From IMG/VR virus record IMGVR_UViG_2917938226_000001: a DNA stretch of 37,497 bases; one strand, written 5' to 3'. Origin of the DNA: a virus. The position numbers were made by a program, and so were the translations under genes. Under the pieces are notes generated by a model. That model was not told where the DNA came from. It saw nothing but the letters and a program-made list of their open reading frames with translations, and did not search any database. Below, piece after piece: positions 1-37,497 of the stretch; position 1 is the stretch's first letter; the number at the start of each line of letters is the position of its first letter.

Positions 1-95
1 GCCTTACCATGCCGGGCCTCGCCGCGATCCCCTCACCCTCACGGGATCATCGGGGGAAAGCCGTCATGGAGGTCTGACCCTCCACGGCGGTAAAC
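1..95. repeat. Terminal direct repeat, left copy (circularity overlap)
   Basis: 1-95 is identical to 37403-37497, including 25 bp unique to pentamer tract 1; indicates a circular contig of about 37,402 bp. Confidence 0.92.
26..95 (-). ncRNA. 70-nt double-hairpin constant unit of the pentamer array, copy A (also 37428-37497)
   Basis: Minus strand GTTTACC GCCGT GGAGG gtcaga CCTCC atg ACGGC TTTCCCCCGAT GATCCC gtgagggtgag GGGATC; 69/70 identical to 169-238. Confidence 0.75.
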
Positions 96-166
96 CCTGC
101 CATACCTTGCCTTGCCTTGCCTGGCCAAGCCAAACCTCACCGTACCTTACCTCAGCCTGCCGTGCC
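92..166 (-). ncRNA. GGY-NN pentamer tract 2 (15 units), putative guide RNA
   Basis: Plus strand NN-RCC in exact 5-nt register, 14/15 perfect; minus-strand NN series AC AG GA AA AC GA TT TT CA AA AA AA AT AG TT. Confidence 0.85.
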
Positions 167-168
167 TT

Positions 169-238
169 GATCCCCTCACCCTCGCGGGATCATCGGGGGA
201 AAGCCGTCATGGAGGTCTGACCCTCCACGGCGGTAAAC
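169..238 (-). ncRNA. 70-nt double-hairpin constant unit, copy B
   Basis: One mismatch to 26-95, located in the loop of the GATCCC/GGGATC hairpin. Confidence 0.75.
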
Positions 239-294
239 TCTGCCATACCTCGCCTAGCGCTGCCATGCCCGGCCTCGCCACACCTTGCCATACC
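235..294 (-). ncRNA. GGY-NN pentamer tract 3 (12 units), putative guide RNA
   Basis: 10/12 units perfect and register kept; minus-strand NN series AT AA GT GA CG AT AG TA GA AT AG TT. Confidence 0.82.
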
Positions 295-328
295 TCGGGC
301 GCCCCTTCGGAAATAACTCCTCAGAGGC

Positions 329-340
329 GTATAATATCTT
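329..340 (-). promoter_or_regulatory. Putative archaeal BRE/TATA promoter of the pentamer array
   Basis: Minus strand AAGA-TATTATAC; predicted start near 303-308, just upstream of tract 3. Confidence 0.55.
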
Positions 341-2281: not shown

Positions 2282-2426
2282 GTATAGTATATATAATCTT
2301 CTATTTTGATCTGAAGAATTGAATAACATAATATAAATGGCGCAGACTATGGTCGAACTCACTCGAAATAGATCCCGTCCCCCCCTAGAACGGATAGGTT
2401 GTGCAGCATACGATAATGATATATGT

Positions 2427-2442
2427 TACTAACTACAATGTA
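2427..2442. promoter_or_regulatory. Operator-like direct repeat TACTAACTACAATGTA, copy 1
   Basis: Exact 16-bp repeat of 2915-2930, immediately upstream of the ATG at 2446. Confidence 0.6.
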
Positions 2443-2445
2443 ACT

Positions 2446-2904
2446 ATGAGGAGCATACAGAGTATGTATGAGATCACGGAAGAAGGGTTCCAGGCTGTGG
2501 TCGGGAAAAGATCAATTGTTTTCCAGAGATCCAATTATGAGGACGGCCGGTATTATTACGAGGGGGAAGCACTCGTCTCTGAATCGGGGCGCTTATCGTT
2601 TGTCGTTCGGTTCCGTACGCGTGAAGAGAATGTGATTCGGTCGCTTCTGATTGATGGTGAGGGGGAGCACGAGGCCCCCGACCTGGTGCTCCCTATCGAC
2701 GAGCAGACGCGCGAGAGATATTATGATTCGATATATCAATATCTCCTTGAGATGCTCATCGTCTCAGTATCGCAGCACCCGCTCACTGAATTTAGGGTAT
2801 TCGGGCACGAATGCATCACAAAAACAGTGAAGCCGGGATCGGGTGCAGGGCATATCTATACCCCCAAGGGTTGGATCGGGTCTACAGTCCAGATCATCAG
2901 GTAA
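2446..2904 (+). CDS. Protein with C-terminal DUF2080-like (AbrB-like) domain
   Basis: C-terminus ITKTVKPGSGAGHIYTPKGWIGSTVQII. Confidence 0.75.
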   Translation: MRSIQSMYEITEEGFQAVVGKRSIVFQRSNYEDGRYYYEGEALVSESGRLSFVVRFRTREENVIRSLLIDGEGEHEAPDLVLPIDEQTRERYYDSIYQYLLEMLIVSVSQHPLTEFRVFGHECITKTVKPGSGAGHIYTPKGWIGSTVQIIR

Positions 2905-2914
2905 TTATTTATAC

Positions 2915-2934
2915 TACTAACTACAATGTAGTTA
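2915..2934. promoter_or_regulatory. Operator-like site, copy 2, containing palindrome TAACTACA-A-TGTAGTTA
   Basis: Perfect 8-1-8 inverted repeat just after a TTATTTATA box. Confidence 0.62.
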
Positions 2935-2958
2935 TTAACGCACGGAGTGTGAGAAACA

Positions 2959-3366
2959 ATGTCTGAAGGGAATTATTTCATCCGGTTTAGGAATTCGCAG
3001 GGCAATGAGTACGAGATCGGTCTCGTCAACGACGAGATCGTGATCGACGTGGGGGAAGGAGGAGTCCTCTCCTTGGAAAGTTACTACAATTACGCGGACG
3101 CAGAGAGGGAGCGGATCTATTTCGAATTCATGGGGACCGAAATCCGGGACTCGATCCGCGAGGCGGCGGAGCACCCCGATCTACCCTATCTCGTCGGGAT
3201 CGAGGAGGAGGATTTGGTCAGCGTCGAGCGGATCACCCCTCGGAAGATAGAGATTGAGGGGTACGAACTCCTCGAAAAGAGGGCGGCGGCGTGCGGCAAC
3301 TCAGGACGCATCTACGTCCCCGCAGACTGGATCGGTCACCGCGTTGCGGTGATCCGGCTCGACTAA
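2959..3366 (+). CDS. Protein with C-terminal DUF2080-like domain
   Basis: EKRAAACGNSGRIYVPADWIGHRVAVIR; followed by a T-tract. Confidence 0.78.
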   Translation: MSEGNYFIRFRNSQGNEYEIGLVNDEIVIDVGEGGVLSLESYYNYADAERERIYFEFMGTEIRDSIREAAEHPDLPYLVGIEEEDLVSVERITPRKIEIEGYELLEKRAAACGNSGRIYVPADWIGHRVAVIRLD

Positions 3367-6005: not shown

Positions 6006-6935
6006 TTACGCATGTGACGTATAGCCCAATTCGATCATGGCGATTCCTCGCAGGATAGGGTAGACCTGTTGCGGCACGACGGCGTTTCCGAGGGCTCGCA
6101 GTCGCTCCACCCGTCCGGAAACCCCATCAACCACTCGACCCACCGAGGGCTCAACTGCCCACTGGCCCCCTCGTGGATCAGAGCACCAGGTATCGAATCC
6201 CGATCCTTCTGTGACTGTGGGAGAGTCGAGTTCTTGGCGTCCTGGGCGCACGGCGTCGGGAACATCGCCGCCGCCTGAATCAATTTCATGGCGTGCCGGG
6301 TTTTCCCGGTATACTCCTTCCCCTTCAGATCTCCGCAGGTCGCATCGAAACGGGTTGGTGTCGGGAACATCGCCACGGCCGTCTGGAGGCCTGGTCCGCC
6401 CTCCCCGTGCACACATTTCCCCGTCGAGGAGTTCGCCCGCGGCGTGGGCCACAACGAACACTCTCTCTCTCTGGTGCGGGGCACCGACGCCCGCAGCCGG
6501 AATATGGAACGGCCGGCAGGTGTAGCCGATACGCTCCAGGTCAGCAATGCAATCGTCGAGTGCCAAGCTGATGATTCCAACAACATTCTCTCCAAACACC
6601 CAAGCGGGCCGGAGCTCCTGCACAATGCGGAGCATTTCCGGCCAGAGGAAACGGTCATCCTCTGTGCCTCGTCGCTGCCCGGCGAGGGAGAACGGCTGGC
6701 ACGGGAACCCGCCGGAGAGGAGGGTCGGGCGTTCGATGCCGGCGTCCCGGAGAGCGTCATTTGTAACGGTTCGCACATCGTCGAATCGTGGGACGTCTGG
6801 CCAGTGTTTCGCGAGGTCTTGCTGGCAGTACGGGTCTTGCTCGACCTGGGCGACGGTGCGGAATCCGGCCCACTCTGCGGCAAGGTCGATCCCGCCAATG
6901 CCAGTGAAGAGGCTGAGGTGTGTGAGGTCATTCAT
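6006..6935 (-). CDS. DNA (cytosine-5)-methyltransferase, alpha-type polypeptide
   Basis: Motif I LFTGIGG, IV GGFPCQPFS, VI ENV, VIII RER, X LGNAVVP; no motif IX. Confidence 0.93.
   Translation of the reverse strand: MNDLTHLSLFTGIGGIDLAAEWAGFRTVAQVEQDPYCQQDLAKHWPDVPRFDDVRTVTNDALRDAGIERPTLLSGGFPCQPFSLAGQRRGTEDDRFLWPEMLRIVQELRPAWVFGENVVGIISLALDDCIADLERIGYTCRPFHIPAAGVGAPHQRERVFVVAHAAGELLDGEMCARGGRTRPPDGRGDVPDTNPFRCDLRRSEGEGVYRENPARHEIDSGGGDVPDAVRPGRQELDSPTVTEGSGFDTWCSDPRGGQWAVEPSVGRVVDGVSGRVERLRALGNAVVPQQVYPILRGIAMIELGYTSHA
6035..6931 (-). CDS. Nested alternative-frame beta-type polypeptide of the C5 methyltransferase
   Basis: 298-aa stop-free frame with three (W/F)PTP repeats and motif IX-like QLSPRWVEWLMGFPDGW; real start may be internal. 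Confidence 0.7.
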   Translation of the reverse strand: MTSHTSASSLALAGSTLPQSGPDSAPSPRSSKTRTASKTSRNTGQTSHDSTMCEPLQMTLSGTPASNARPSSPAGSRASRSPSPGSDEAQRMTVSSGRKCSALCRSSGPLGCLERMLLESSAWHSTIALLTWSVSATPAGRSIFRLRASVPRTRERECSLWPTPRANSSTGKCVHGEGGPGLQTAVAMFPTPTRFDATCGDLKGKEYTGKTRHAMKLIQAAAMFPTPCAQDAKNSTLPQSQKDRDSIPGALIHEGASGQLSPRWVEWLMGFPDGWSDCEPSETPSCRNRSTLSCEESP

Positions 6936-10577: not shown

Positions 10578-10696
10578 TAGTAGTGCCGTTCCGTTCGCTG
10601 TCCCCAAGCTACACGCCTGGAGGGATAGCTGATGATATGTTGCCCCCCCCTGGTTGATATTGTTTTGGGTCATTGCGCTCTATGCGGGGTGAGTTT

Positions 10697-12988
10697 ATGA
10701 CCGAGGTTGGGGATCACGGCCACGGCGCAAAGATCACGGCATCTCGGGAGAAATACCTATACAGAATTGCCAGAGATCTGCATTCGCAGAACCCTGTCGA
10801 GAACTTTCTAGAGGATCTTCAAGACACAAATCGGAAAGTAATTTCGCCGCCCCTCCCTGAAGAGACGGTATCTCAAATCTATAAAGATGTGGCCGGGTGG
10901 AATCTCCAATTCACGCCGCAGATATACCAGATGCACGTGCCGCCAGGTTCAATATCTGCAATCGTAGAGGGCATGCGCCGGGTAGTGTCTGAAAATGATG
11001 GAGATCAGACTAAAAAGGAAAATACCCGGGCTATAGAAATTAGAATGTGCCACCGCCTCGACGATAAAGAGAATGGGGCCGTTGTGCCCATCGAGATCCC
11101 CCTCAGAATGGATCTCAGTACTCTCCAATATATCGAGGGGGCGGGGGCTCGGATTGTAGGCAATCCCTACCATGAAGTTGAACCCTACGAGGCAGTCCGA
11201 TTTACCAACGCGATGGATCTAGATCGGATATTTTACCATGCCCAATCTGTATACCAGGAGCGAAACGCCACAAATGCGCCGAAGATCATCACAGATGAAA
11301 ATCTGATGAAGATGAGAGAGGCGTTCATCGAACGCGCACGCGGGTACCTAGAGCGCGGGGATGATGAGTGCTCGGTCCTGAACGACCTCATCAACGAAGA
11401 CCGTGGGCACTATTTCTGGGAAATTCGGATCTCAGATATTGTTGGGGCTGCGAAGGATGCCGTCCAACGCGCCAATAGTAATGCTCGCCTTCAGAACAAT
11501 CCTCTTCTGAAACTAACTCCTGCAAGTGTTGCGGAGAGGTTTGTAGACCTAAAAGGGAAAGAGATCAGATTTGTCTACGATCTGAAGATCTGGAGAGTCT
11601 GGAACGGCATTCGGTGGGAAGATGACCCCGCCGAGGTGAAAATTCAGAAGAAAATTAAGGAAGTTGTCTCGAACTTGGCAAAAGAGGCCACGCTTACCGT
11701 GGAGGATGAAAAAATCTTGGGGGCGGTTACCAAATTCTTCAAGGGACTGCTCTCCAATGGAGGAATCAAGGGACTAATTGAGATTATATCACGAGATGAA
11801 AAAATTGCCACGAGTTATGGGCACTTCGACGCAGACCCGTACCTCCTGAACTTTGAAAACTGCACATATGACTTGCGAACGTTTACAGGCCGTCCACATT
11901 CCCCCGATGATCTGATCACCAATGTCGCGGGCCAGGGGACGGATCCCGACACTGGAGAAACCATGACAGTCAGGTACGACCCCTCGGCCAAGTGCCCCCT
12001 CTGGAAGAAGAGCCTCGAAGAATGGTTCCCGTTGGATCATGATCATAACCCACATGGGAAAAACGTAGACCGCGATACAATCGAATCCCTCCAGGTTCGA
12101 TTGGGATACAGTATTTCAGGAAATGCCATTGAAGACGACTTCCTGGTGTGGTATGGATTGAAGGGGCGAAATGGAAAGGGGGTATGCAAGGATATTACTA
12201 TGGCAGTTCTTGGAACCTATGCCACGGTATCTGACCGAACCTTAGTCATTGAAACGTATGAAACGGGGAAAGGAGGATCCAGAGGAGACCTCAAAAATCT
12301 CATTGGGAAACGCCTCGTTTTCGTAGATGAACTTAAAAGGAAAGATAGGTTGGACTGCGCGTTTGTGAAGGACTGGTGCGGGCACGGCATCATATCTTTC
12401 CGGCCGCCATACGGATCCAACGAAATCCATATGCGCCCCGCAGGATCCATCATACTCCTCACAAACAATCTGGGATCTATTGAAAGTGCCGACAGTATAT
12501 GGGACAGGTTGAGGATTGTCCCGTGGACCAAGTACTTTGGTGAGAACGAAAGGAAAAAGAATCTCAGATCCGAGTTGTTCAAAGAATTGCCGGGCATTAT
12601 AAACTGGTACCTTGAAGGCTACAAAAAATATACTCAACTAAAAAAATTGCCAGAATCCAACGCAATGCATGCATCACGGGTGAAATACATGGAGGACAAC
12701 AACCCTCTGGCAGACTGGATCGCCGATGAGATGATATTGGCGAATGAGGCCCCAAAATCTCAAAGGCACAAAATAAAAACTCTAAAATCGGAAGTTTACA
12801 CGTATTATAAAAACTGGGCGCTAAATGAAGGATATGATAAAAAAGAGTACCTTGGAAGAACCACATTCTACAAGGAACTTGAGGATAAATACAGAGGAGT
12901 GATCACCCTTAAAACCATACAAGGCAGTAGATTTTATCAAGGAATATGTCTTAGATATCGGTTTGAAAATGATAAACATACGCTCTAA
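10697..12988 (+). CDS. P4/D5-family primase-associated SF3 helicase (PriCT-like N-terminus, D5_N, helicase)
   Basis: PPLPEETV (PriCT-like), WRVWNGIRWEDD, YLLNFENCTYDL, Walker A GRNGKG, Walker B RLVFVDE, IILLTN, WDRLRIVPW; GGTGA RBS. Confidence 0.88.
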   Translation: MTEVGDHGHGAKITASREKYLYRIARDLHSQNPVENFLEDLQDTNRKVISPPLPEETVSQIYKDVAGWNLQFTPQIYQMHVPPGSISAIVEGMRRVVSENDGDQTKKENTRAIEIRMCHRLDDKENGAVVPIEIPLRMDLSTLQYIEGAGARIVGNPYHEVEPYEAVRFTNAMDLDRIFYHAQSVYQERNATNAPKIITDENLMKMREAFIERARGYLERGDDECSVLNDLINEDRGHYFWEIRISDIVGAAKDAVQRANSNARLQNNPLLKLTPASVAERFVDLKGKEIRFVYDLKIWRVWNGIRWEDDPAEVKIQKKIKEVVSNLAKEATLTVEDEKILGAVTKFFKGLLSNGGIKGLIEIISRDEKIATSYGHFDADPYLLNFENCTYDLRTFTGRPHSPDDLITNVAGQGTDPDTGETMTVRYDPSAKCPLWKKSLEEWFPLDHDHNPHGKNVDRDTIESLQVRLGYSISGNAIEDDFLVWYGLKGRNGKGVCKDITMAVLGTYATVSDRTLVIETYETGKGGSRGDLKNLIGKRLVFVDELKRKDRLDCAFVKDWCGHGIISFRPPYGSNEIHMRPAGSIILLTNNLGSIESADSIWDRLRIVPWTKYFGENERKKNLRSELFKELPGIINWYLEGYKKYTQLKKLPESNAMHASRVKYMEDNNPLADWIADEMILANEAPKSQRHKIKTLKSEVYTYYKNWALNEGYDKKEYLGRTTFYKELEDKYRGVITLKTIQGSRFYQGICLRYRFENDKHTL

Positions 12989-13063: not shown

Positions 13064-13092
13064 CGAAATGTTCACAGCGCTAACTTTTTGGG

Positions 13093-13190
13093 ACTCTGCA
13101 CCCTGACCCTACAACTCTGCACCCTGACCCTACAACTCTGCACCCTGACCCTACAACTCTGCACCCTGACCCTACAACTCTGCACCCTGA
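13093..13190. repeat. 21-bp iteron array (4.7 copies), putative replication origin
   Basis: ACTCTGCACCCTGACCCTACA x4 plus a 14-bp partial copy, directly downstream of the helicase. Confidence 0.9.
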
Positions 13191-13251
13191 ATATCCTCAT
13201 ATATCTGTTATTTTCTACTATACTCAGAGTATTATAGGAATCTACCCTATA

Positions 13252-13449
13252 AGGGTGCAGAGTTACCTTGTCATAACACTACACAGAGCGCATTTTCGCG
13301 TTCCCATAAGGTTTATAGAAATGGGGTGTAACTCTGCACCCTACAAATCATGAATATTACAATCTGCCGATCAATCCTGAAAAGAAGAGTGACATTTGTT
13401 CCGATTCATTTTGATTAGGGTGCAGAGTTTGATCTCAACTCTGCACCCT
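13252..13449. repeat. Dispersed and inverted copies of iteron core ACTCTGCACCCT
   Basis: Reverse at 13252-13263, forward at 13331-13342, inverted pair at 13417-13428 and 13438-13449. Confidence 0.85.
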
Positions 13450-13490
13450 GTCAATAGTATTATATATTAGATCGCACCTTCGGGAATGAA

Positions 13491-16900: not shown

Positions 16901-19594
16901 TCACCTGTAGAGTTTGTATTCGGATTTCCGCATGTATACGAACACTCCCAGGAACGTCAGTGCCGCGACGATGGGCGCGAGAGCGAGGGGGAGCCACCCG
17001 AGGAAGACCGGGAGCCCGCCGCCGAAGAGCGGGACGATGATCGCACCCTGTCGGACGCGAGGCCCTGAGAAGAGGCTACCGAGACCGATAATCCAGCAGA
17101 CCGAGATGAGCTGATACCAGAACTCATCTTCGAACCCGAGATCCACCAACCGTCCGGTGCCGTGAAGCGTAATCTCCCGGTAGTTGGAGATGGTGCCATA
17201 CTGCGTGTGCGTCGCGTTGAACCCGTAGGACGCGGTGGTCGGATGCGTGTTGTCGATGGCGTACGAGGAGTTGATCCATCCGGCGGCGTTTGGTGCAGAA
17301 GATTCAGTGTAGAGCACTGTGCCGGCCGCGTCCTTCACCCAGAAGTTGAGTGTTGTGGTGCCGTTGACGCCCTGTGGATCATGGTAGGAGAGGGCGAGCG
17401 AGATGGATTCGGGGGAGACTTCTGTTGCGGTGAGGTCGTAGGAGGGGTACTGTGCGCCGGCCGGAGCGTCACGAAGCCTGAACTGGATGGTGTACTCCGC
17501 CTCTTTCGGGAAGATAGAGAAGGTGGTGGACGTGTTCGAGACCGGATCGAAGGCGTCGATCTGGTAGCGGATGCACTCGATCATCAGGAAGTTGATCGAC
17601 CCGTCGAGGCCGGTGGTGCCGGAGAGCGTCGCGGTGGTGATGTTTGCGCAGTCACCGACCGGGACACCGATGAGGTTGCTGAGCCAGTCGTCAGGGTTGG
17701 ATATCTCGATGTAGGCCGCGGAGAGTTGGACGCCGGGCATCGGGGCGCCGTAGTCGTCGATGCAGTGGAACCGGACGGTCCGCGGGACGTAGTTCCCGGT
17801 AGACGGCGGCGCTGCGGCGGCCTGTTTGGTGAGTAGCAGCGTCACTTTCGTGTCCCGGTCAACGAAGGCGTAGGTGGATGTCGGGTAATATCCCTGCGCC
17901 GCGGCAGAGACCGTGTACGACCCGTAGCCGACGGTGAAGCGGGCGGTGCCGGAGGAGGTGACGGTTTCCTGCCCGTCGGTGAGTGAGACCGTGGTGGAGT
18001 TGGTGAGGATGGTGCCGGCCTCTGCGTCTTTGACGGTGACGTTGAGGGTGAACGACGAGGCGAGGGCGACGTTGCGCTGTGTGACTCCATCGACGACGAC
18101 CGTCTCGGTTATGCCGGTGTGCCCCGGTGCAGAGGCAGAGAGGGTGTACTGCCCGTTGGCGACGTCGGCGAACTCGTAGAACCCCGTGGAGGTGGTGACG
18201 GTGCTGTCGGACCATGAGGCGTTGTTGACCGCGACGGTGGCGCCGGAGATGCCCTGCGCTGAACCCTGAGCGTAGACCTGGCCGTAGAGGGATGTGGTGT
18301 TTGCCGGCGGCGGGGTGTCGGGGTAGAGGTAGAGGTTGATTGCCCAGGTGGAGAGGCGCGGGACGCTGGTATATTCAGTGGTTTGTGAGGTGTAACCGGA
18401 TTTGCTGACGGTGAACGAGACGGGGAAGTCGGGGTTGAGCGGTGTGATGCTGAAGTATCCGGCGCTGTCGGTGGTATCGCTGTCGCTGGTGCCTGCGGCG
18501 GGTTGTGCGGCGGAGACGGTGGCGCCCTCGATGACGGTGCCGGTGGTTACGTCGTAGACGAAGCCGGTGGCGGTGACGTTGGTTTTCGGGTCGATGTACA
18601 TGCCGCTGATCGTTGCGGTGGCAGAGGGAGAGGCGAGTTCTTTGAGCGAGGAGTCGTAGACGCGGCAGGTGATGGTGTGGCGCCCTTCGGAGGGGAAGGA
18701 GAGAGATTGTGTTTTTGCGGCGGCGGCTGTAGTGGCGTGGGAGTAGGTGCCGGTGAATTGGTCGTATTCGTACCATGTGGAGCCGTTGAGATGGTAGGTG
18801 TTGTAGAGGGCGCCGTCGGTGAACCACGAGATGTACGCGTATTCGGGGGCGTCGGCGGCGGCGGATAGGGTGGCCTGGATGGGTTCGTAGACGGCGGCGG
18901 TGGTGGGGGAGAGGGAGAGAATGAAATATGTGGTGTCGGGGTCGTTGGGGAGGTCGGGGGCAGGATCTACATAGACATAATCATAATCTCCCTGAGATAT
19001 AACATAAGCCCACGCCGCAGTACCAAACGTCGGATACATAGCAGACGGCGCAGACGTGGTTAAAACCCGCCAGTCAGCATCATCGATGGCAAATTTCAGA
19101 GTAGTACCTTCAACACGAAACTTATACACATGATAAGAAGAACCCGTTATACGCTCCTCATTAACTAACTTAGACGAACTAGACCCACTACAACGATAAA
19201 CATTGAACCCCGTAGACCATAAACCAACGTGAATCCCATTTCTCGTACTCACATCATACGCAGGAGAAGTACCCGTGAAAAGACCAAAAATGATCTGGTT
19301 CCCCCCAGCATGACGTACCCGAAAATGACATTCATAGGTCCCGCTCATCGAATTAGGATACTGATACCAGTTCCACCGCTTCGCAAGGGAACCCGAATTG
19401 GTCCAGATAGACGCAACACCGACATCCACCGACGACGATCCCCCCGAGACTCGATGATTCCAGACAGACGAGATGGATCCACCGAAGTCGTCCCTAAAAT
19501 CTTCGTAGGCGCTGACGGGGGCGACGGCACCGATCATCATCAATGCGAGGGCGGCGAGGATCACCAACCGTGGCGTGCCTCCTCCCGGCGTCAA
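16901..19594 (-). CDS. Large spike/adsorption-like protein (about 890-900 aa): signal peptide, lectin-like beta-sandwich, carboxypeptidase-regulatory-like repeats, C-terminal TMs
   Basis: LVILAALALMMIGAVAPVSA; GFVYDVTTGTVIEGATVS...TDSAGYFSI and GISGATV...TTSTGFYEF repeats; many N-x-S/T sequons; TTG start inferred. Confidence 0.8.
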   Translation of the reverse strand: MTPGGGTPRLVILAALALMMIGAVAPVSAYEDFRDDFGGSISSVWNHRVSGGSSSVDVGVASIWTNSGSLAKRWNWYQYPNSMSGTYECHFRVRHAGGNQIIFGLFTGTSPAYDVSTRNGIHVGLWSTGFNVYRCSGSSSSKLVNEERITGSSYHVYKFRVEGTTLKFAIDDADWRVLTTSAPSAMYPTFGTAAWAYVISQGDYDYVYVDPAPDLPNDPDTTYFILSLSPTTAAVYEPIQATLSAAADAPEYAYISWFTDGALYNTYHLNGSTWYEYDQFTGTYSHATTAAAAKTQSLSFPSEGRHTITCRVYDSSLKELASPSATATISGMYIDPKTNVTATGFVYDVTTGTVIEGATVSAAQPAAGTSDSDTTDSAGYFSITPLNPDFPVSFTVSKSGYTSQTTEYTSVPRLSTWAINLYLYPDTPPPANTTSLYGQVYAQGSAQGISGATVAVNNASWSDSTVTTSTGFYEFADVANGQYTLSASAPGHTGITETVVVDGVTQRNVALASSFTLNVTVKDAEAGTILTNSTTVSLTDGQETVTSSGTARFTVGYGSYTVSAAAQGYYPTSTYAFVDRDTKVTLLLTKQAAAAPPSTGNYVPRTVRFHCIDDYGAPMPGVQLSAAYIEISNPDDWLSNLIGVPVGDCANITTATLSGTTGLDGSINFLMIECIRYQIDAFDPVSNTSTTFSIFPKEAEYTIQFRLRDAPAGAQYPSYDLTATEVSPESISLALSYHDPQGVNGTTTLNFWVKDAAGTVLYTESSAPNAAGWINSSYAIDNTHPTTASYGFNATHTQYGTISNYREITLHGTGRLVDLGFEDEFWYQLISVCWIIGLGSLFSGPRVRQGAIIVPLFGGGLPVFLGWLPLALAPIVAALTFLGVFVYMRKSEYKLYR

Positions 19595-23626: not shown

Positions 23627-23992
23627 TTACTTCTGGCGCGGCATCAGGACGTAGAGCGCACCAAGGATACCGACAGCCGCCATGATGATCAGCGTGATCG
23701 CCAGGAGACCGTACCCGCTCTGGGTCGTGGTGGCCAGACTGGTCTGGATTCCGTGCCAGGACGAGTTGTCGGGGATGGCGGGGGTCCCTGCCTCGATGTT
23801 GTAGAGGATCACAACGCCGATAGCCATCACGACTGCCGCGACGATGAACCCGAGGACAACATTGACGTTGCCATCCTCCACGTCCATCTTGTACCGGTCC
23901 CTGACGGCGCTAGCGCCGCCGGTTGCGTATACGGCGAGGAGTTCCTTGCCGTACTTGGTGTACTTTTCAATCAGAGTCATCTTTCCTTTCAC
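23627..23992 (-). CDS. Candidate major capsid protein of spindle-shaped-virus type (propeptide plus hydrophobic helical hairpin)
   Basis: Charged 40-aa leader ending DVEDG, helix 1 VVLGFIVAAVVMAIGVVILY, linker with NSS sequon, helix 2 LLAITLIIMAAVGILGALY, basic end; own AT-rich promoter; next to the ATPase. Confidence 0.7.
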   Translation of the reverse strand: MKGKMTLIEKYTKYGKELLAVYATGGASAVRDRYKMDVEDGNVNVVLGFIVAAVVMAIGVVILYNIEAGTPAIPDNSSWHGIQTSLATTTQSGYGLLAITLIIMAAVGILGALYVLMPRQK

Positions 23993-24068: not shown

Positions 24069-25124
24069 CTATATTGACGCGGCATCTTCTGGTGGCGGGG
24101 CGGCGACAGTCTTCACAATTGGGGGTTGGTTCGGGATGCGAGTGAATGGGAGACGGCCGAACCGCTCTTTTGGCTCTTCGAGGATGGCCCACCCGTGCCG
24201 CGGGAGGATGCCGATCAGACGGGTGGAAACCATGCTGATCCTGCTCTTCGGGCGACTCCCCCGCAACCAGATGTAATAAGAGAGCCGGTCGGTGACGCGA
24301 TAATCCATGTCGTTGGTGTCCTGGGTGCCGATCATCATGGAGATGTTGTTTTTTCGGAAACTGATCATCGTCTCTGAGAACCAGCCTACCAGGTGCCAGA
24401 GGTCTCCCCGGGCGCAGGCCGGGAAGACCTGGTGCGCCTCGTCGATGGAGATAAGGAAGAACTCGTCCTGGTATTTCAGGCGGATCAGGGCTTCGAGGAA
24501 CTCATACCACCAGATTGCAGAGGGTGCGCGAACCGCCTCGGTAGGGCGCTTTTTCTGCCGGGTGAGGTCGGCGGCCATAATACGGTCCAGAACTTCAGGC
24601 GGGAGGTAATACTCCCGGGGTTCGTATACGATATTGATGCCGCCCATAAGGAGGTTAGAGTACAAATCCTCGACAGTGCCGTACGTAGTAATCTCTTCGA
24701 TGGGCTGAAGTTGGATCTGATACCTCTTTCGGTCGCGCTCTTCGTACCACGCGAGACGGTCTTTGTAATAGAGATGAACCCTAAGAGGTTTGACGTGTTT
24801 CGCATCGGGGAACGATTTCTGGAAGTTTTGCGGGATCTGGCAGTTCCAGTGGTCGTTCTCCAGGCCGCGGTGAATGACGGTTTCGGGATATTTCGGGGCG
24901 CCTCCAGAGGAATGCTTGTTGTATGGTGCCGGCAGGTACGTTGCTGCTTGTTCGAGTTGTACTATGAACGTGCTTTTCCCGCTACCGAATTTCCCGACAA
25001 GCCCCGTCATGGTTCCCCCGTAAGCGGTCACGCCGTCGTCATGCACGGAAATCTCATACGCCATCTCTCTGCCCTTCGAGGCCGACACTCTCTGAAGAGG
25101 GCGCGGGAGTGTGGATTCGTCCAT
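24069..25124 (-). CDS. P-loop ATPase (FtsK/HerA/Zot-like; putative packaging or assembly ATPase)
   Basis: Walker A GKFGSGKST, Walker B LISIDEAH, RKNNISMMIGTQ, DYRV. Confidence 0.88.
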   Translation of the reverse strand: MDESTLPRPLQRVSASKGREMAYEISVHDDGVTAYGGTMTGLVGKFGSGKSTFIVQLEQAATYLPAPYNKHSSGGAPKYPETVIHRGLENDHWNCQIPQNFQKSFPDAKHVKPLRVHLYYKDRLAWYEERDRKRYQIQLQPIEEITTYGTVEDLYSNLLMGGINIVYEPREYYLPPEVLDRIMAADLTRQKKRPTEAVRAPSAIWWYEFLEALIRLKYQDEFFLISIDEAHQVFPACARGDLWHLVGWFSETMISFRKNNISMMIGTQDTNDMDYRVTDRLSYYIWLRGSRPKSRISMVSTRLIGILPRHGWAILEEPKERFGRLPFTRIPNQPPIVKTVAAPPPEDAASI

Positions 25125-25522
25125 TATTCGCCACTTCCGCGCCTATCCTCTGCGGGGGAAGGTCTCTTGTTCAGGAGCATGTCGGAGAAGTACATGTCTT
25201 GCGATGCGATGGAGATCAAGTCTTCATTCAGGCATACAGTGACGAAATAGTCCATGATGTCTGAGGTTTTTGAGAGTGTTTCAGCCCAGAGGCTGCTATC
25301 GTTGGCAAAGGACGTTGCAACCTTATCCCACGTCTTCTTCCACTCAACCCAGTCTGAGAGGAATTGGGCGGGGGGCTTCCCTTTCTTTTTTTGAATAGCC
25401 GCCCATGTGAGGGACATGACGGAGCGGGACAACCGAAGCGCCTGGGCGGGATCCGTGGAGCATGACGCCACCACAATCAGGCGACCAAGAGCCTCTTTAT
25501 AATCATTGGGTATAATGCCCAT
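25124..25522 (-). CDS. Hypothetical protein
   Basis: 132 aa, TAATG coupling to the ATPase. Confidence 0.7.
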   Translation of the reverse strand: MGIIPNDYKEALGRLIVVASCSTDPAQALRLSRSVMSLTWAAIQKKKGKPPAQFLSDWVEWKKTWDKVATSFANDSSLWAETLSKTSDIMDYFVTVCLNEDLISIASQDMYFSDMLLNKRPSPAEDRRGSGE

Positions 25523-26903: not shown

Positions 26904-26977
26904 GTCATCATCACGCTCATCACCCCGTGGTGCGCGTGATGATGACGTGGTGATGATGTGATGATGAGGTGATGAGG
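26904..26977. repeat. GTGATGATG repeat cluster with a 13-bp inverted repeat
   Basis: GTCATCATCACGC (26904-26916) and GCGTGATGATGAC (26934-26946); direct copies at 26950, 26958 and 26969. Confidence 0.8.
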
Positions 26978-35546: not shown

Positions 35547-35597
35547 GTTCTATCTCCCGTCTTCACCCTCCTCGCGAGAGGAGGGATCCAACGCAAG

Positions 35598-35646
35598 CCC
35601 TGGAGGGGGAGTCGGACCCCCTCGCGGCCACCTGGCCAGGGTACTC
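35598..35646. repeat. 49-bp structured direct repeat, copy 1
   Basis: CCCTGGAGGGGGAGTCGGACCCCCTCGCGGCCACCTGGCCAGGGTACTC, identical at 35999-36047. Confidence 0.9.
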
Positions 35647-35863
35647 AGTCGTAGAGGCTATACAGGTCGGGGTCGTCGTCGAGGATCTCGCGGATGAACC
35701 GCTCCAGAGCTTCGGGACTCAGAGGGAGACCCTCCCTCCAAAGAAACCGTGCGAGACTCTCCAGTACCTCCTGGGAGTCGCGGCCCTCGCCCCAATCCCA
35801 GCCAATAACTCCGCTATTGAGGACCTCGGTCCTCGCGTCCGTGATTGTAGTATAGTAACTCAT
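35645..35863 (-). CDS. Small hypothetical protein
   Basis: MSYYTTITDART..., GGAG RBS; lies between the two 49-bp repeats. Confidence 0.62.
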   Translation of the reverse strand: MSYYTTITDARTEVLNSGVIGWDWGEGRDSQEVLESLARFLWREGLPLSPEALERFIREILDDDPDLYSLYD

Positions 35864-35998
35864 TATCCATCTCCTGTAGAGCGCAGGGTCGGACCCCCCT
35901 TGGGGCCCCACCCCGCTCCACAATACTATGTTATACATAATACTATATATAACTTCCTCTCCCTTCACCGGTCCCCCGTGGGGACCGGATCCGGGAAA

Positions 35999-36047
35999 CC
36001 CTGGAGGGGGAGTCGGACCCCCTCGCGGCCACCTGGCCAGGGTACTC
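35999..36047. repeat. 49-bp structured direct repeat, copy 2
   Basis: Identical to 35598-35646. Confidence 0.9.
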
Positions 36048-36138
36048 CATACTACTACATTATACATACAAGTATTTATAATTAACTATCCGTACCATAT
36101 CAGTAAACTATATATAATATTATGTATAAGTTAGTAGT

Positions 36139-36564
36139 ATGGAGCATATGGAGCAGAAACAGGTACCTCTCTTCACGGAGGTGGATCTGATTTCGATCTA
36201 CACCAGGGAGGACGCAATTAGAGATGGCCTCCTGGTGGACGTATCAGAGATGGGCCGCGAGGCTGGGTTTAGGATCCCGGTCGCGGTCACGCGAAAGTTG
36301 TGGGACGAGTATATAGTACCTGACCCGCGCTCTGTCCCCTACGGCCAGAGTGTGGACGGTCGCCTCTGGGATACCCTGTGGATGAGCCACCTCGCGGCCC
36401 GCTGCAGGCCGGACACGGACCGCGTGCAGTACAGCGTGCAGTACAAGGTCATCTACATCATGAAAACCGCACAGCGGAGGGGGATCACTCTGGAGATGCG
36501 GGTCGGGGCCGCAGACCCACAGGGTCGCCCCTGCATCACGATCATGCTCCCGGGGGAGGACTGA
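36139..36564 (+). CDS. DUF6573-like protein
   Basis: IYTREDAIRDGLLVDVS...PVAVTRKLW...GRLWDTLWM...ITIMLPGED. Confidence 0.78.
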   Translation: MEHMEQKQVPLFTEVDLISIYTREDAIRDGLLVDVSEMGREAGFRIPVAVTRKLWDEYIVPDPRSVPYGQSVDGRLWDTLWMSHLAARCRPDTDRVQYSVQYKVIYIMKTAQRRGITLEMRVGAADPQGRPCITIMLPGED

Positions 36565-36797: not shown

Positions 36798-37337
36798 CTA
36801 TTTTTCCCACTTCGTAACCATAAAGCGGCCAAACGGCCCCTTCCGTTCTGGCCGGAAGTCCAGAAGGCCGACCTTCGCCCCTGCATCATCCACGACCGTC
36901 CTGAGTTGCGCCTCCGTCAGCATTTCAGGATCGTAATCGAGGGTGAACCGAACTTCCCACTGGTCCAGACGCGGACGGTACCGAACTATCCGGCCCTTTG
37001 TCGCAGAGATCACGACGGGGCGCGCGTCGATCTTGTAGTCGGTCGTCCCCAGGCCGCACTGGTCCGGGGAAACGAACACGCAGGCCGCCACGGGTTTTTG
37101 CAGGCTGGCCCTGCCTTTCCCCTTCGAGTAGACCGCTGCGGCGATCAATGCCCTCTGGATCGCAACGCCAGGAATGTACAGTTCCTTCGTCTCTTCGTCG
37201 CGGTATGCGGCTATCTCTGCCTGTTCCTCTTTCGACTTCTTTTCAATCGCATGCACGGGTTCCATGGGGAATCGGTGCATAAGGAGAGCAGATCCCTCAA
37301 CGCCCTCAATTGTTACTTTAACTTTTTTTACAGCCAT
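36798..37337 (-). CDS. Stand-alone Cas7/RAMP-like protein, putative Vipr-type effector of the GGY-NN array
   Basis: N-terminal beta strand VKVTIEG..LLMH, LYIPGVAIQRALIAAA (RAMP YIPGSSxKG-like), W-V-F-L strand, C-terminal Gly-rich loop GAKVGLLDFRPERKGPFGRF; immediately downstream of the pentamer array. Confidence 0.8.
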   Translation of the reverse strand: MAVKKVKVTIEGVEGSALLMHRFPMEPVHAIEKKSKEEQAEIAAYRDEETKELYIPGVAIQRALIAAAVYSKGKGRASLQKPVAACVFVSPDQCGLGTTDYKIDARPVVISATKGRIVRYRPRLDQWEVRFTLDYDPEMLTEAQLRTVVDDAGAKVGLLDFRPERKGPFGRFMVTKWEK

Positions 37338-37340
37338 AAT

Positions 37341-37425
37341 TTACCTCGCCTCGCCGTGCCGTGCCTCGCCGTGCCGTGCCTCGCCATGCCAAACCTCACC
37401 TGGCCTTACCATGCCGGGCCTCGCC
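37341..37425 (-). ncRNA. GGY-NN pentamer tract 1 (17 perfect units), putative guide RNA or leader
   Basis: Minus-strand NN series GA CC AT AA CA GA TT AT GA AC AC GA AC AC GA GA AA; ends 3 nt before the ATG. Confidence 0.88.
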
Positions 37426-37497
37426 GCGATCCCCTCACCCTCACGGGATCATCGGGGGAAAGCCGTCATGGAGGTCTGACCCTCCACGGCGGTAAAC
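37403..37497. repeat. Terminal direct repeat, right copy
   Basis: Identical to 1-95. Confidence 0.92.

What the first reader, a model, noticed from the sequence alone, without database searches (positions are those of the whole stretch)
92..294. Testable gapped target code from the NN dinucleotides
If GGY is the scaffold and one target base is skipped per unit, the predicted targets (guide sense) are: tract 3 AT.AA.GT.GA.CG.AT.AG.TA.GA.AT.AG.TT; tract 2 AC.AG.GA.AA.AC.GA.TT.TT.CA.AA.AA.AA.AT.AG.TT; tract 1 GA.CC.AT.AA.CA.GA.TT.AT.GA.AC.AC.GA.AC.AC.GA.GA.AA. The NN are strongly A/T-rich against a GC-rich genome, pointing to a foreign AT-richer target or to promoters. Read as codons with the wobble base skipped, they give protein-like strings (for example I/M-K/N-V-D/E-R-I/M-R/S-Y-D/E-I/M-R/S-F/L), which would make targeting immune to synonymous escape. 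Tracts 2 and 3 share the last three units (AT AG TT), which may be scaffold. I saw no convincing self-target in a non-exhaustive look.
Basis: inference. Interest (0 to 1): 0.85.

Follow-up and report, generated by a model that had tools for sequence, protein, structure and literature searches.

The report
Viral guide RNAs aimed at CRISPR genes
The five-base repeats are guide RNAs of a VIPR system (a CRISPR-like RNA-guided DNA silencer published in 2026) on a 37-kb virus-like circle of a methanogen. Read with the published skip-one-base rule, two of the three guides point at the host's own CRISPR genes, so the circle probably uses them to switch off the immunity that targets it.

Summary
Tracts of 10 or more units occur nowhere else in the 2.9-Mb genome.

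The gapped code is not new. It is the published VIPR "1-nt skip" rule (bioRxiv 10.64898/2026.04.26.720920). The adjacent 179-aa gene is a Vipr homologue: it hits the PDB chain of SUSP1 Vipr at E 1.4e-6 and has a Cas7-like fold.

- **Skip length:** only the 1-nt skip gives hits above shuffled controls.
- **Tract 3:** matches host cas5c (type I-C) at 20/22 NN bases.
- **Tract 2:** matches host cas8e (type I-E) over 8 consecutive perfect units, 21/28 overall.
- **Frame:** both hits are in frame, with the skipped base at the wobble position.
- **Tract 1:** no target found.
- **Independent replicate:** a related VIPR locus from a Methanoregula MAG carries a different guide that matches this host's cas8e at 22/22.
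- **Reciprocal targeting:** the host's I-C and I-E arrays hold 7 perfect spacers against the element, six of them with canonical PAMs.

Best reading: a natural RNA-guided anti-CRISPR that silences the Cascade operons.

A neighbouring finding of this scan (e1-5828973) had already reached the same reading on this DNA. I re-tested it independently.

The parts
36798..37337 (-). vipr gene (179 aa), a Cas7-like RAMP protein that would coat the GGY repeats
   Evidence: phmmer hit to PDB 36pp_D 'SUSP1 Vipr protein', E 1.4e-6, with thumb R121 and G-loop D160-F161-R162 aligned to SUSP1 R138 and D177-W178-R179. AF2 pLDDT 85.5; top Foldseek hits are Csm3/Cas7, prob 1.0; phrog_4652; 1350 homologues.
37338..37427 (-). 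Tract 1 (guide A): 18 NNGGY units running up to the vipr start codon, with no 3' tail. Its last 25 nt are duplicated at window 1-25 by the assembly overlap.
   Evidence: No target above shuffles anywhere searched. Tail-less tracts abutting vipr are common in relatives.
26..95 (-). Constant 70-nt element (3' tail of the tract-2 vrRNA), two hairpins; identical copy at 37428-37497
   Evidence: hairpin 1 keeps pairing through two compensatory changes in the Methanoregula MAG tails.
96..168 (-). Tract 2 (guide B): NN AA AC AG GA AA AC GA TT TT CA AA AA AA AT (+AG TT scaffold)
   Evidence: Best genome-wide local hit is in frame in host cas8e (C1:2023444-2023484): 8 consecutive perfect units, 21/28 overall. 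Within the cas loci, p = 1/3000 local and 13/3000 full length.
169..238 (-). Constant 70-nt element (3' tail of the tract-3 vrRNA)
   Evidence: 99% identical to the other copy. Stable hairpin CCGUGGAGG/CCUCCAUGACGG.
239..296 (-). Tract 3 (guide C): NN GA AT AA GT GA CG AT AG TA GA AT (+AG TT scaffold)
   Evidence: 20/22 at host cas5c codons 23-33 (C1:342482-342514), in frame, next best hit 17. Shuffles reach 20 in 2/1500 and 3/1000 genome-wide, and 0/3000 within the cas loci.
331..338 (-). Candidate archaeal TATA box (ATATTATA on the minus strand), about 35 nt upstream of the first unit of tract 3
   Evidence: Read directly from the sequence. Inference only; no expression data.
23634..23667 (.). 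Protospacer: 100% match to host type I-C spacer no. 6 from the leader, with 5'-TTC PAM
25173..25205 (.). Protospacer: 100% match to host type I-C spacer no. 8, with 5'-TTC PAM
25329..25360 (.). Protospacer: 100% match to host type I-C spacer no. 7, with 5'-TTC PAM
17592..17623 (.). Protospacer: 100% match to a host type I-E spacer, 5' flank AAG
18295..18326 (.). Protospacer: 100% match to a host type I-E spacer, 5' flank ATG
6457..6488 (.). Protospacer: 100% match to a host type I-E spacer, 5' flank ACG (not a canonical PAM; my spacer boundary may be off by one)
10785..10816 (.). Protospacer: 100% match to a host type I-E spacer, 5' flank AAG, inside the D5-like primase-helicase gene

Best explanation
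This is a VIPR locus, consisting of a vipr gene and an array of three vrRNA tracts, on a circular 37.4-kb virus- or plasmid-like element of a methanogen.

Proposed mechanism, step by step:
1. The minus strand is transcribed from about 305-340 through tract 3, tail, tract 2, tail, tract 1 and vipr (inferred).
2. The transcript is cut into vrRNAs, each a run of NNGGY units with a two-hairpin 3' tail (inferred from conservation and the published architecture).
3. One Vipr protomer binds each GGY and presents the NN pair (by homology to SUSP1 Vipr; the thumb Arg and the G-loop Asp-aromatic-Arg are conserved).
4. The NN pairs base-pair with the template strand of host genes while skipping every third base (shown computationally). 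Guide C matches cas5c, the second gene of the type I-C operon. Guide B matches cas8e, the second gene of the type I-E operon. In both, the skipped base is the wobble position.
5. The bound filament blocks transcription, as published for VIPR. Cascade genes from the bound gene onward (cas5c or cas8e and the genes after it) are therefore not made (inferred).
6. This disarms both CRISPR systems, whose arrays carry seven perfect spacers against the element, and lets the element persist (inferred).

Because wobble bases are ignored and conserved protein motifs are targeted, one guide fits cas genes across many genera.
For: VIPR identity:
- PDB hit to SUSP1 Vipr with key RNA-binding residues conserved.
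- Cas7/Csm3 fold.
- NNGGY tracts of 10-31 units on the same strand as vipr in 17 of 18 related loci.
- The constant tail lies 3' of the tract and shows compensatory pairs.
- The published definition of vrRNAs and the 1-nt skip rule.

Targets:
- Guide C matches cas5c at 20/22, in frame, with the next best hit at 17. Shuffles reach this in 2/1500 and 3/1000 genome-wide.
- Guide B's best local hit in the genome is in frame in cas8e. Its p is 1/3000 within the 15 kb of cas loci.
- Skips 0 and 2 give nothing.
- The guide C pattern with up to 3 mismatches hits 48 of 301 genomes of the class, against 3 hits for the reversed control. Almost all are the cas5c motif EMKVERVSYDV with varying wobble bases.
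- The guide B site is homologous in 5 of 6 same-genus cas8e genes.

Independent replicate: a guide of the Methanoregula MAG VIPR (Vipr 81% identical) matches this host's cas8e codons 4-14 (NLIADPWIPVR) at 22/22, with 0/150 shuffles reaching it.

Motive:
- Three perfect I-C spacers with TTC PAMs and four perfect I-E spacers (flanks AAG, AAG, ATG, ACG) target the resident element.
- The cas genes tested (I-C: cas3, cas5c, cas8c, cas7, cas4; I-E: cas3, cse1, cse2, cas7, cas5e, cas6e, cas1) give full-length family matches.
Against: - There are no expression, binding or silencing data.
- Guide B reaches only 75% NN identity over 14 units, below the published 80% line. Its genome-wide local score is marginal on its own (6/120 shuffles).
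- Guide C has two A-for-G mismatches that recur in every cas5c seen.
- Guide A has no target.
- No accessory vap gene was recognised. None of ten neighbouring ORFs is conserved in the related loci.
- The published VIPR papers report satellites, prophages, viruses and other VIPRs as targets, not cas genes.
- Protein anti-CRISPRs on the element could explain the coexistence instead.
- The mismatch tolerance of this clade is unknown.
Confidence: 0.75

Rival explanations
1. It is a VIPR system, but its real targets are competing viruses, satellites or plasmids as in the published cases. The matches to cas5c and cas8e are coincidences.
For: All natural targets published so far are mobile elements. 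Guide A has no host target. Guide B is below 80% identity, and 6/120 shuffles reach its local score genome-wide.
Against: The top hits of two guides both fall in frame in the 0.5% of the genome that encodes the two Cascade operons. A third guide from another element hits cas8e perfectly. The element is targeted by exactly these two CRISPR systems. No IMG/VR or metagenome target was found for guide A.
Confidence: 0.08
2. VIPR binds the cas genes, but tolerance of the element is mainly due to something else: protein anti-CRISPRs on the element or an otherwise silent or inactive CRISPR-Cas. VIPR binding would then be redundant, regulatory or a relic.
For: Many small unannotated ORFs sit on the element. 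Guides B and C are imperfect. No functional data exist.
Against: cas-targeting guides are kept in two diverged elements at three different conserved sites, which argues for selection on this function.
Confidence: 0.12
3. The period-5 tracts act at the DNA level (iterons, a centromere or an operator bound by a DNA-binding protein) or as a protein-titrating leader of the TRAP/CsrB kind, and not as guides.
For: The tracts lie directly upstream of a gene. This was my first reading.
Against: A separate iteron-type origin exists at 13093-13197 next to the primase-helicase gene. The adjacent protein is a Vipr/Cas7 homologue. The NN content matches specific genes only under the 1-nt skip.
Confidence: 0.02

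Closest known systems
VIPR systems (Vipr + vrRNA), with Escherichia phage SUSP1 type II as the experimental exemplar (bioRxiv 10.64898/2026.04.26.720920, .720927 and 10.64898/2026.10.15.759431)
   Same: - Vipr RAMP protein with conserved GGY-binding residues.
- YNNGG tandem repeats with variable NN and a constant structured 3' tail.
- Array beside vipr on the same strand.
- Carried by a virus-like element.
- 1-nt-skip matches in coding DNA with the skip at the wobble position.
   Different: - The matches are to host CRISPR-cas genes, not to satellites, prophages or viruses.
- The tail is two hairpins, not the SUSP1 pseudoknot (prediction only).
- No vap gene was recognised.
- The host is archaeal (a methanogen).
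- One tract has no tail and abuts the vipr start codon.
- I could not assign one of the seven published types, because the type tables are not in the held text.
Class 1 CRISPR effector backbones (Cas7/Csm3 filaments on crRNA)
   Same: RAMP fold, with top structural matches at prob 1.0. One protomer binds per repeat of the guide. A thumb interrupts pairing periodically.
   Different: There is no CRISPR array, no spacer acquisition genes, no Cas5/Cas6/large subunit and no nuclease. The period is 5 nt of RNA to 3 nt of target, rather than 6 to 6.
Anti-CRISPRs, including RNA anti-CRISPRs (crRNA-repeat mimics) and self-targeting spacers as a sign of an inhibitor (from my own knowledge, not tested here)
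   Same: A mobile element coexists with perfectly matching, PAM-flanked host spacers. That is the classical signature of an encoded CRISPR inhibitor.
   Different: The proposed inhibitor is a programmable RNA-guided transcriptional block on the cas operons. It is not a protein that binds Cas complexes, nor a decoy repeat RNA.
Phage-encoded CRISPR-Cas aimed at host defence islands (Vibrio phage ICP1 against PLE; from my own knowledge)
   Same: A virus uses an RNA-guided system against a host anti-viral locus.
   Different: ICP1 uses a complete type I-F CRISPR-Cas that degrades DNA. Here a single-protein VIPR would bind and silence, and the target is CRISPR-Cas itself.

Membership tests
VIPR | Vipr protein: a minimal RAMP (RRM core, G-loop, thumb) homologous to characterised Vipr | tested here: met
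   SUSP1 Vipr (PDB 36pp) E 1.4e-6; R121 aligns with R138, and D160-F161-R162 with D177-W178-R179; confident model with Csm3/Cas7 as best folds.
VIPR | vrRNA tract: at least 4 (typically 9-16) tandem YNNGG units with conserved GGY and variable NN | tested here: met
   10, 14 and 18 conforming units. NN differ between tracts. These tracts are unique in the genome.
VIPR | Tract followed by an invariant structured 3' tail | tested here: met
   Met for tracts 2 and 3 (70-nt element, 99% identical copies), with two compensatory pairs against the Methanoregula MAG tails. Tract 1 has no tail, as in several relatives.
VIPR | Tracts flank vipr on the same strand | tested here: met
   true here and in 17 of 18 related loci.
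VIPR | Natural targets under the 1-nt skip rule (at least 80% NN match), with skip bases mostly at the wobble position and no self-target on the source contig | tested here: met
   Guide C 91% (20/22), in frame. Guide B 75% over 14 units, or 82-86% over units 4-14 or 1-11, in frame. Guide A none. No hit on the element itself..
VIPR | vrRNAs are expressed, processed and co-purify with Vipr; binding silences transcription | not testable with these tools
No wet-lab data.
VIPR | Accessory vap gene next to vipr (typical, not universal) | tested here: not met
   None of 10 neighbouring ORFs has a homologue in 18 related loci. Pfam gives only weak zinc-ribbon hits. The paper says loci 'typically' carry vap, so I do not treat it as defining.
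Anti-CRISPR (functional class) | Inhibits CRISPR-Cas interference against its carrier | not testable with these tools
   Circumstantial only: 7 perfect spacers with PAMs coexist with the element, and the guides match cas5c and cas8e.
Hammerhead-interspersed vrRNA arrays (VIPR types I/V) | A hammerhead ribozyme between vrRNAs | tested here: not met
   Rfam found nothing at the gathering threshold or at E<=1 on 1-420.

The most novel reading that the evidence does not exclude
A clade of methanogen viruses and plasmids uses VIPR as a natural, programmable RNA-guided anti-CRISPR. vrRNAs written against conserved motifs of cas5c and cas8e, with wobble bases ignored, would silence the Cascade operons of two CRISPR types at once and across host genera. 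This lets the element live with a host that carries perfect spacers against it. On this reading, a relative of the CRISPR backbone protein, which the VIPR authors regard as the more ancient form, is turned against CRISPR.
Probability: 0.7. Interest if true: 0.85.

Novelty: new variant of a known kind. Interest (0 to 1): 0.75.

Why it matters
The code itself is already published, so on that point the finding only re-derives known biology. What is new is the target class.

The VIPR papers held here describe war between mobile elements, plus host-domesticated antiviral VIPRs. None reports guides against host cas genes.

If true, this would be the first natural RNA-guided transcriptional anti-CRISPR. 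It would show why a gapped code that skips wobble bases is useful: one guide covers a conserved protein motif across species and resists synonymous escape.

The case is unusually complete. Host spacers against the element and element guides against the host's cas genes sit in one sequenced strain. Knock-outs could therefore test it directly.

Tried and rejected
- **First reading.** I first thought of a leader or DNA operator bound by an oligomeric protein (TRAP/CsrB-like, or iterons). I dropped this after the Vipr hit and the target matches. A separate iteron origin lies at 13093-13197.
- **Other skip lengths.** Skips 0 and 2 are not above shuffles. Skip 3 finds only the array itself.
- **Guide A in the host and its relatives.** The genome-wide best of 25/36 is reached by 19/60 shuffles. 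The local best is a low-complexity ETTETT stretch at the 3' end of hemA. No hit with up to 3 mismatches in 12 genomes of the genus.
- **Guide A in public collections.** Exact scans of IMG/VR gave 0 hits for units 1-10 and 4 hits for units 4-13. Those 4 lie in unrelated ORFs and do not extend (23-26/36), so they are chance. Two metagenome scans gave 0 hits.
- **Guide B at full length.** No hit with up to 3 mismatches in 301 genomes of the class.
- **Ribozymes and known RNA families.** Rfam found no hammerhead or any other family in the array.
- **Close relatives of the element.** Megablast of the element against the plasmid and phage collections found nothing.
- **Guides of relatives.** Guides of the 15 IMG/VR loci and the Anaerolineaceae locus do not match this host's cas loci. 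Only the Methanoregula MAG guide does.
- **VIPR type.** Supplementary tables to assign the type were not available.

Full report
**What is there**

The window is contig C2 of a two-contig genome (2.87-Mb chromosome C1 plus this 37.5-kb contig). Its first and last 95 nt are identical, so it is a circle of 37,402 nt.

The host is a methanogen, with two mcrA genes above the family cut-off. The element carries a D5-type primase-helicase, a serine recombinase, a DNA methyltransferase and adhesin-like proteins. It has no close relative in the plasmid or phage collections.

Read on the minus strand across the junction, the order is tract 3 (296-239), a constant 70-nt element (238-169), tract 2 (168-96), the same 70-nt element (95-26 = 37497-37428), tract 1 (25-1 / 37427-37338), then the ATG of a 179-aa gene (37337-36798).

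GGY conformity is 10/13, 14/16 and 18/19 units. No other tract of 10 or more units exists in the genome on either strand. NN are 68% A+T.

**What it is**

My first reading was a protein-titrating leader or operator. A note from a neighbouring finding of this scan (e1-5828973) pointed me to VIPR, and I checked that in the literature and in the sequence.

VIPR systems were described in 2026 (10.64898/2026.04.26.720920):
- a Vipr RAMP protein;
- vrRNAs of 9-16 YNNGG repeats with variable NN and an invariant 3' tail;
- DNA targets that match the NN with one skipped base per unit, mostly the codon wobble base;
- at least 80% NN identity taken as the criterion for a natural target;
- no PAM, and either DNA strand can be targeted.

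Cryo-EM shows one protomer per repeat. The GGY is held by thumb R138 and G-loop D177-W178-R179, and the filament forms a gapped R-loop triplex (10.64898/2026.04.26.720927).

The evidence that this locus is a VIPR system:
- The 179-aa protein hits the PDB chain 'SUSP1 Vipr protein' at E 1.4e-6. R121 aligns with R138, and D160-F161-R162 with D177-W178-R179. These residues are invariant or nearly so among 22 homologues.
- Its AF2 model (pLDDT 85.5) has Csm3/Cas7 backbones as best structural matches.
- In 17 of 18 related loci from IMG/VR and genomes, NNGGY tracts of 10-31 units flank vipr on the same strand.
- The closest locus is a Methanoregula MAG with Vipr 81% identical. It has the same tract-plus-tail design. 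Hairpin 1 of the tail keeps pairing through two compensatory changes.
- Rfam finds no ribozyme or other family in the array.

**Testing the code**

I scanned both strands of the whole genome with each guide. I counted NN matches for skips 0-3 and used shuffled-guide nulls, which is the same logic as the published method.

| Guide | Result under skip 1 | Controls |
|---|---|---|
| C (tract 3) | 20/22 at C1:342482-342514; next best 17 | Unit-order shuffles reach 20 in 2/1500; guides drawn from the pooled NN in 3/1000 |
| B (tract 2) | 8 consecutive perfect units, 21/28 overall; best local hit in the genome (16 against 12 for the next) | 6/120 shuffles genome-wide |
| A (tract 1) | nothing above chance | see below |

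Skip 3 finds only the array itself. Skips 0 and 2 give nothing.

- **Guide C target.** The site is codons 23-33 of cas5c (E-M-K-V-E-R-V-S-Y-D-V), in frame, with the skipped base at the wobble position. The gene sits in a full type I-C locus: array, cas3, cas5c, cas8c, cas7, cas4.
- **Guide B target.** The hit lies in frame in cse1/cas8e (K-V-K-D-N-T-D-F-F-Q-K-R) of a full type I-E locus.
- **Hypothesis-driven test.** Once guide C had pointed to cas genes, the appropriate test was to search only the 15 kb of the two cas loci. There guide C gives 0/3000, and guide B gives 1/3000 (local) and 13/3000 (full length). Guide A and skips 0 and 2 give nothing.
- **Strand and position.** In both hits the guide has the sense of the coding strand, so it would pair with the template DNA strand and cannot pair with the mRNA. 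Both sites are in the second gene of the operon, just after cas3. I expect a transcriptional block there to be polar on the remaining Cascade genes.

**Breadth and replication**

- The guide C pattern with up to 3 mismatches occurs in 48 of 301 genomes sampled from the class (16 of 42 genera). The reversed control gives 3 hits. Nearly all real hits are the same cas5c motif, with wobble bases varying and NN constant.
- The same two mismatches (guide AT against target GT, units 7 and 11) recur everywhere. Unit 11 lies in the tail-proximal stretch (GGTATGGCAG) that is identical in tracts 2 and 3, so I suspect its NN is fixed by the scaffold rather than by the target.
- The guide B site is homologous in 5 of 6 cas8e genes of the genus, scoring 19-21/28.
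- Independent replicate: tract 2 of the Methanoregula MAG locus (NN AA CT AT GC GA CC TG AT CC GT AG) matches this host's cas8e codons 4-14 (N-L-I-A-D-P-W-I-P-V-R) at 22/22. It is the best hit in the genome, and 0/150 shuffles reach it.
- So two diverged elements carry three guides against three conserved sites in Cascade genes.

**Motive**

- The host's type I-C array (70 repeats) holds three spacers identical over their full length to the element. They are nos. 6-8 from the AT-rich leader end. Each protospacer has a 5'-TTC flank, the canonical I-C PAM by my own knowledge.
- The five I-E arrays (118 spacers) hold four more perfect spacers, with 5' flanks AAG, AAG, ATG and ACG.
- The cas genes I tested in both loci (cas3 through cas4 in I-C, cas3 through cas1 in I-E) give full-length family matches.
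- A resident element facing seven perfect spacers implies an inhibitor. Guides against exactly these two systems supply one.

**What remains open**

- **Guide A.** It has no target in the host, the genus, IMG/VR or the metagenome scans. The four IMG/VR hits to units 4-13 lie in unrelated ORFs and do not extend, so they are chance. Guide A lacks a tail and abuts the vipr RBS, as in several relatives. It may be a vrRNA with an unsampled target or a leader element.
- **Guide B strength.** Guide B is below the published 80% line over 14 units. It reaches 82-86% if the degenerate third unit or the tail-proximal units are excluded.
- **Missing parts and data.** No vap gene was recognised.
- **Promoter.** The TATA-like motif at 331-338 is read by eye only.

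**Verdict**

The gapped code is right but already published.

Skipping the GC-rich third codon position (host GC 0.66/0.45/0.74 by position) explains part of the NN composition, and I attribute the rest to the K/E/D/N/T-rich motifs that are targeted.

The new point is the target class, the host's CRISPR-cas operons. It is supported by statistics, an independent replicate and reciprocal spacers.

Noticed in passing
window 13072-13465: Four to five tandem 21-nt repeats (ACTCTGCACCCTGACCCTACA) plus dispersed and inverted copies of AACTCTGCACCC. They sit in an AT-rich stretch just downstream of the D5-type primase-helicase gene (10673-12988). This is probably the replication origin with iterons.
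   Followed up: partly
G000 C1:335369-339954 (L004 1369-5954): The three element-matching spacers of the type I-C array are consecutive, nos. 6-8 from the AT-rich leader side, and the far end has degenerate repeats. This looks like a recent burst of acquisition against this element. I found no cas1/cas2 directly after cas4 in this locus, although only one ORF was tested.
   Followed up: partly
G000 C1: 1832346-1833384, 1844176-1846007, 1898105-1898776, 2018412-2020122, 2029078-2031030: Five type I-E-style arrays with 118 spacers are scattered over 200 kb. Besides the four perfect matches, several spacers match the element partially: 27/32 with 2 mismatches at window 26941-26967, and 32/32 with 4 mismatches at window 24396-24427. 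These may be older or escaped targets.
   Followed up: partly
window 1-95 and 37403-37497: There is an exact 95-nt terminal overlap of the contig, so the record is a circle written with redundant ends. The true number of 143-nt array units could be two (as joined here) or more if the assembler collapsed copies.
   Followed up: partly
window 35595-36145: A 52-nt direct repeat (98% identical, 401 nt apart) sits beside AT-rich inverted repeats of 43-44 nt (35915-35958, 36045-36087, 36102-36145), between small ORFs and about 650 nt from the vipr stop codon. Their function is unknown.
   Followed up: no
window 2401-3366: Two adjacent paralogous ORFs (167 and 135 aa) each begin after a similar 41-nt AT-rich upstream sequence (2407-2447 and 2895-2935). 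The second has a weak DUF2080 hit at its C-terminus.
   Followed up: no
L022 2227-2291 (Methanoregula MAG): The first guide of this related VIPR locus (NN AA GG TA TA AA AC TC TC) has no match in this host. The last three units of both its tracts (GA GA AA) are identical and may be scaffold, like AT-AG-TT here.
   Followed up: partly
homologue list: Vipr homologues at 60-70% identity to this archaeal protein occur in bacterial MAGs (Deltaproteobacteria, Anaerolineaceae, Chloroflexota) and in many IMG/VR contigs. That is unusually high conservation across the two domains for a viral protein.
   Followed up: no
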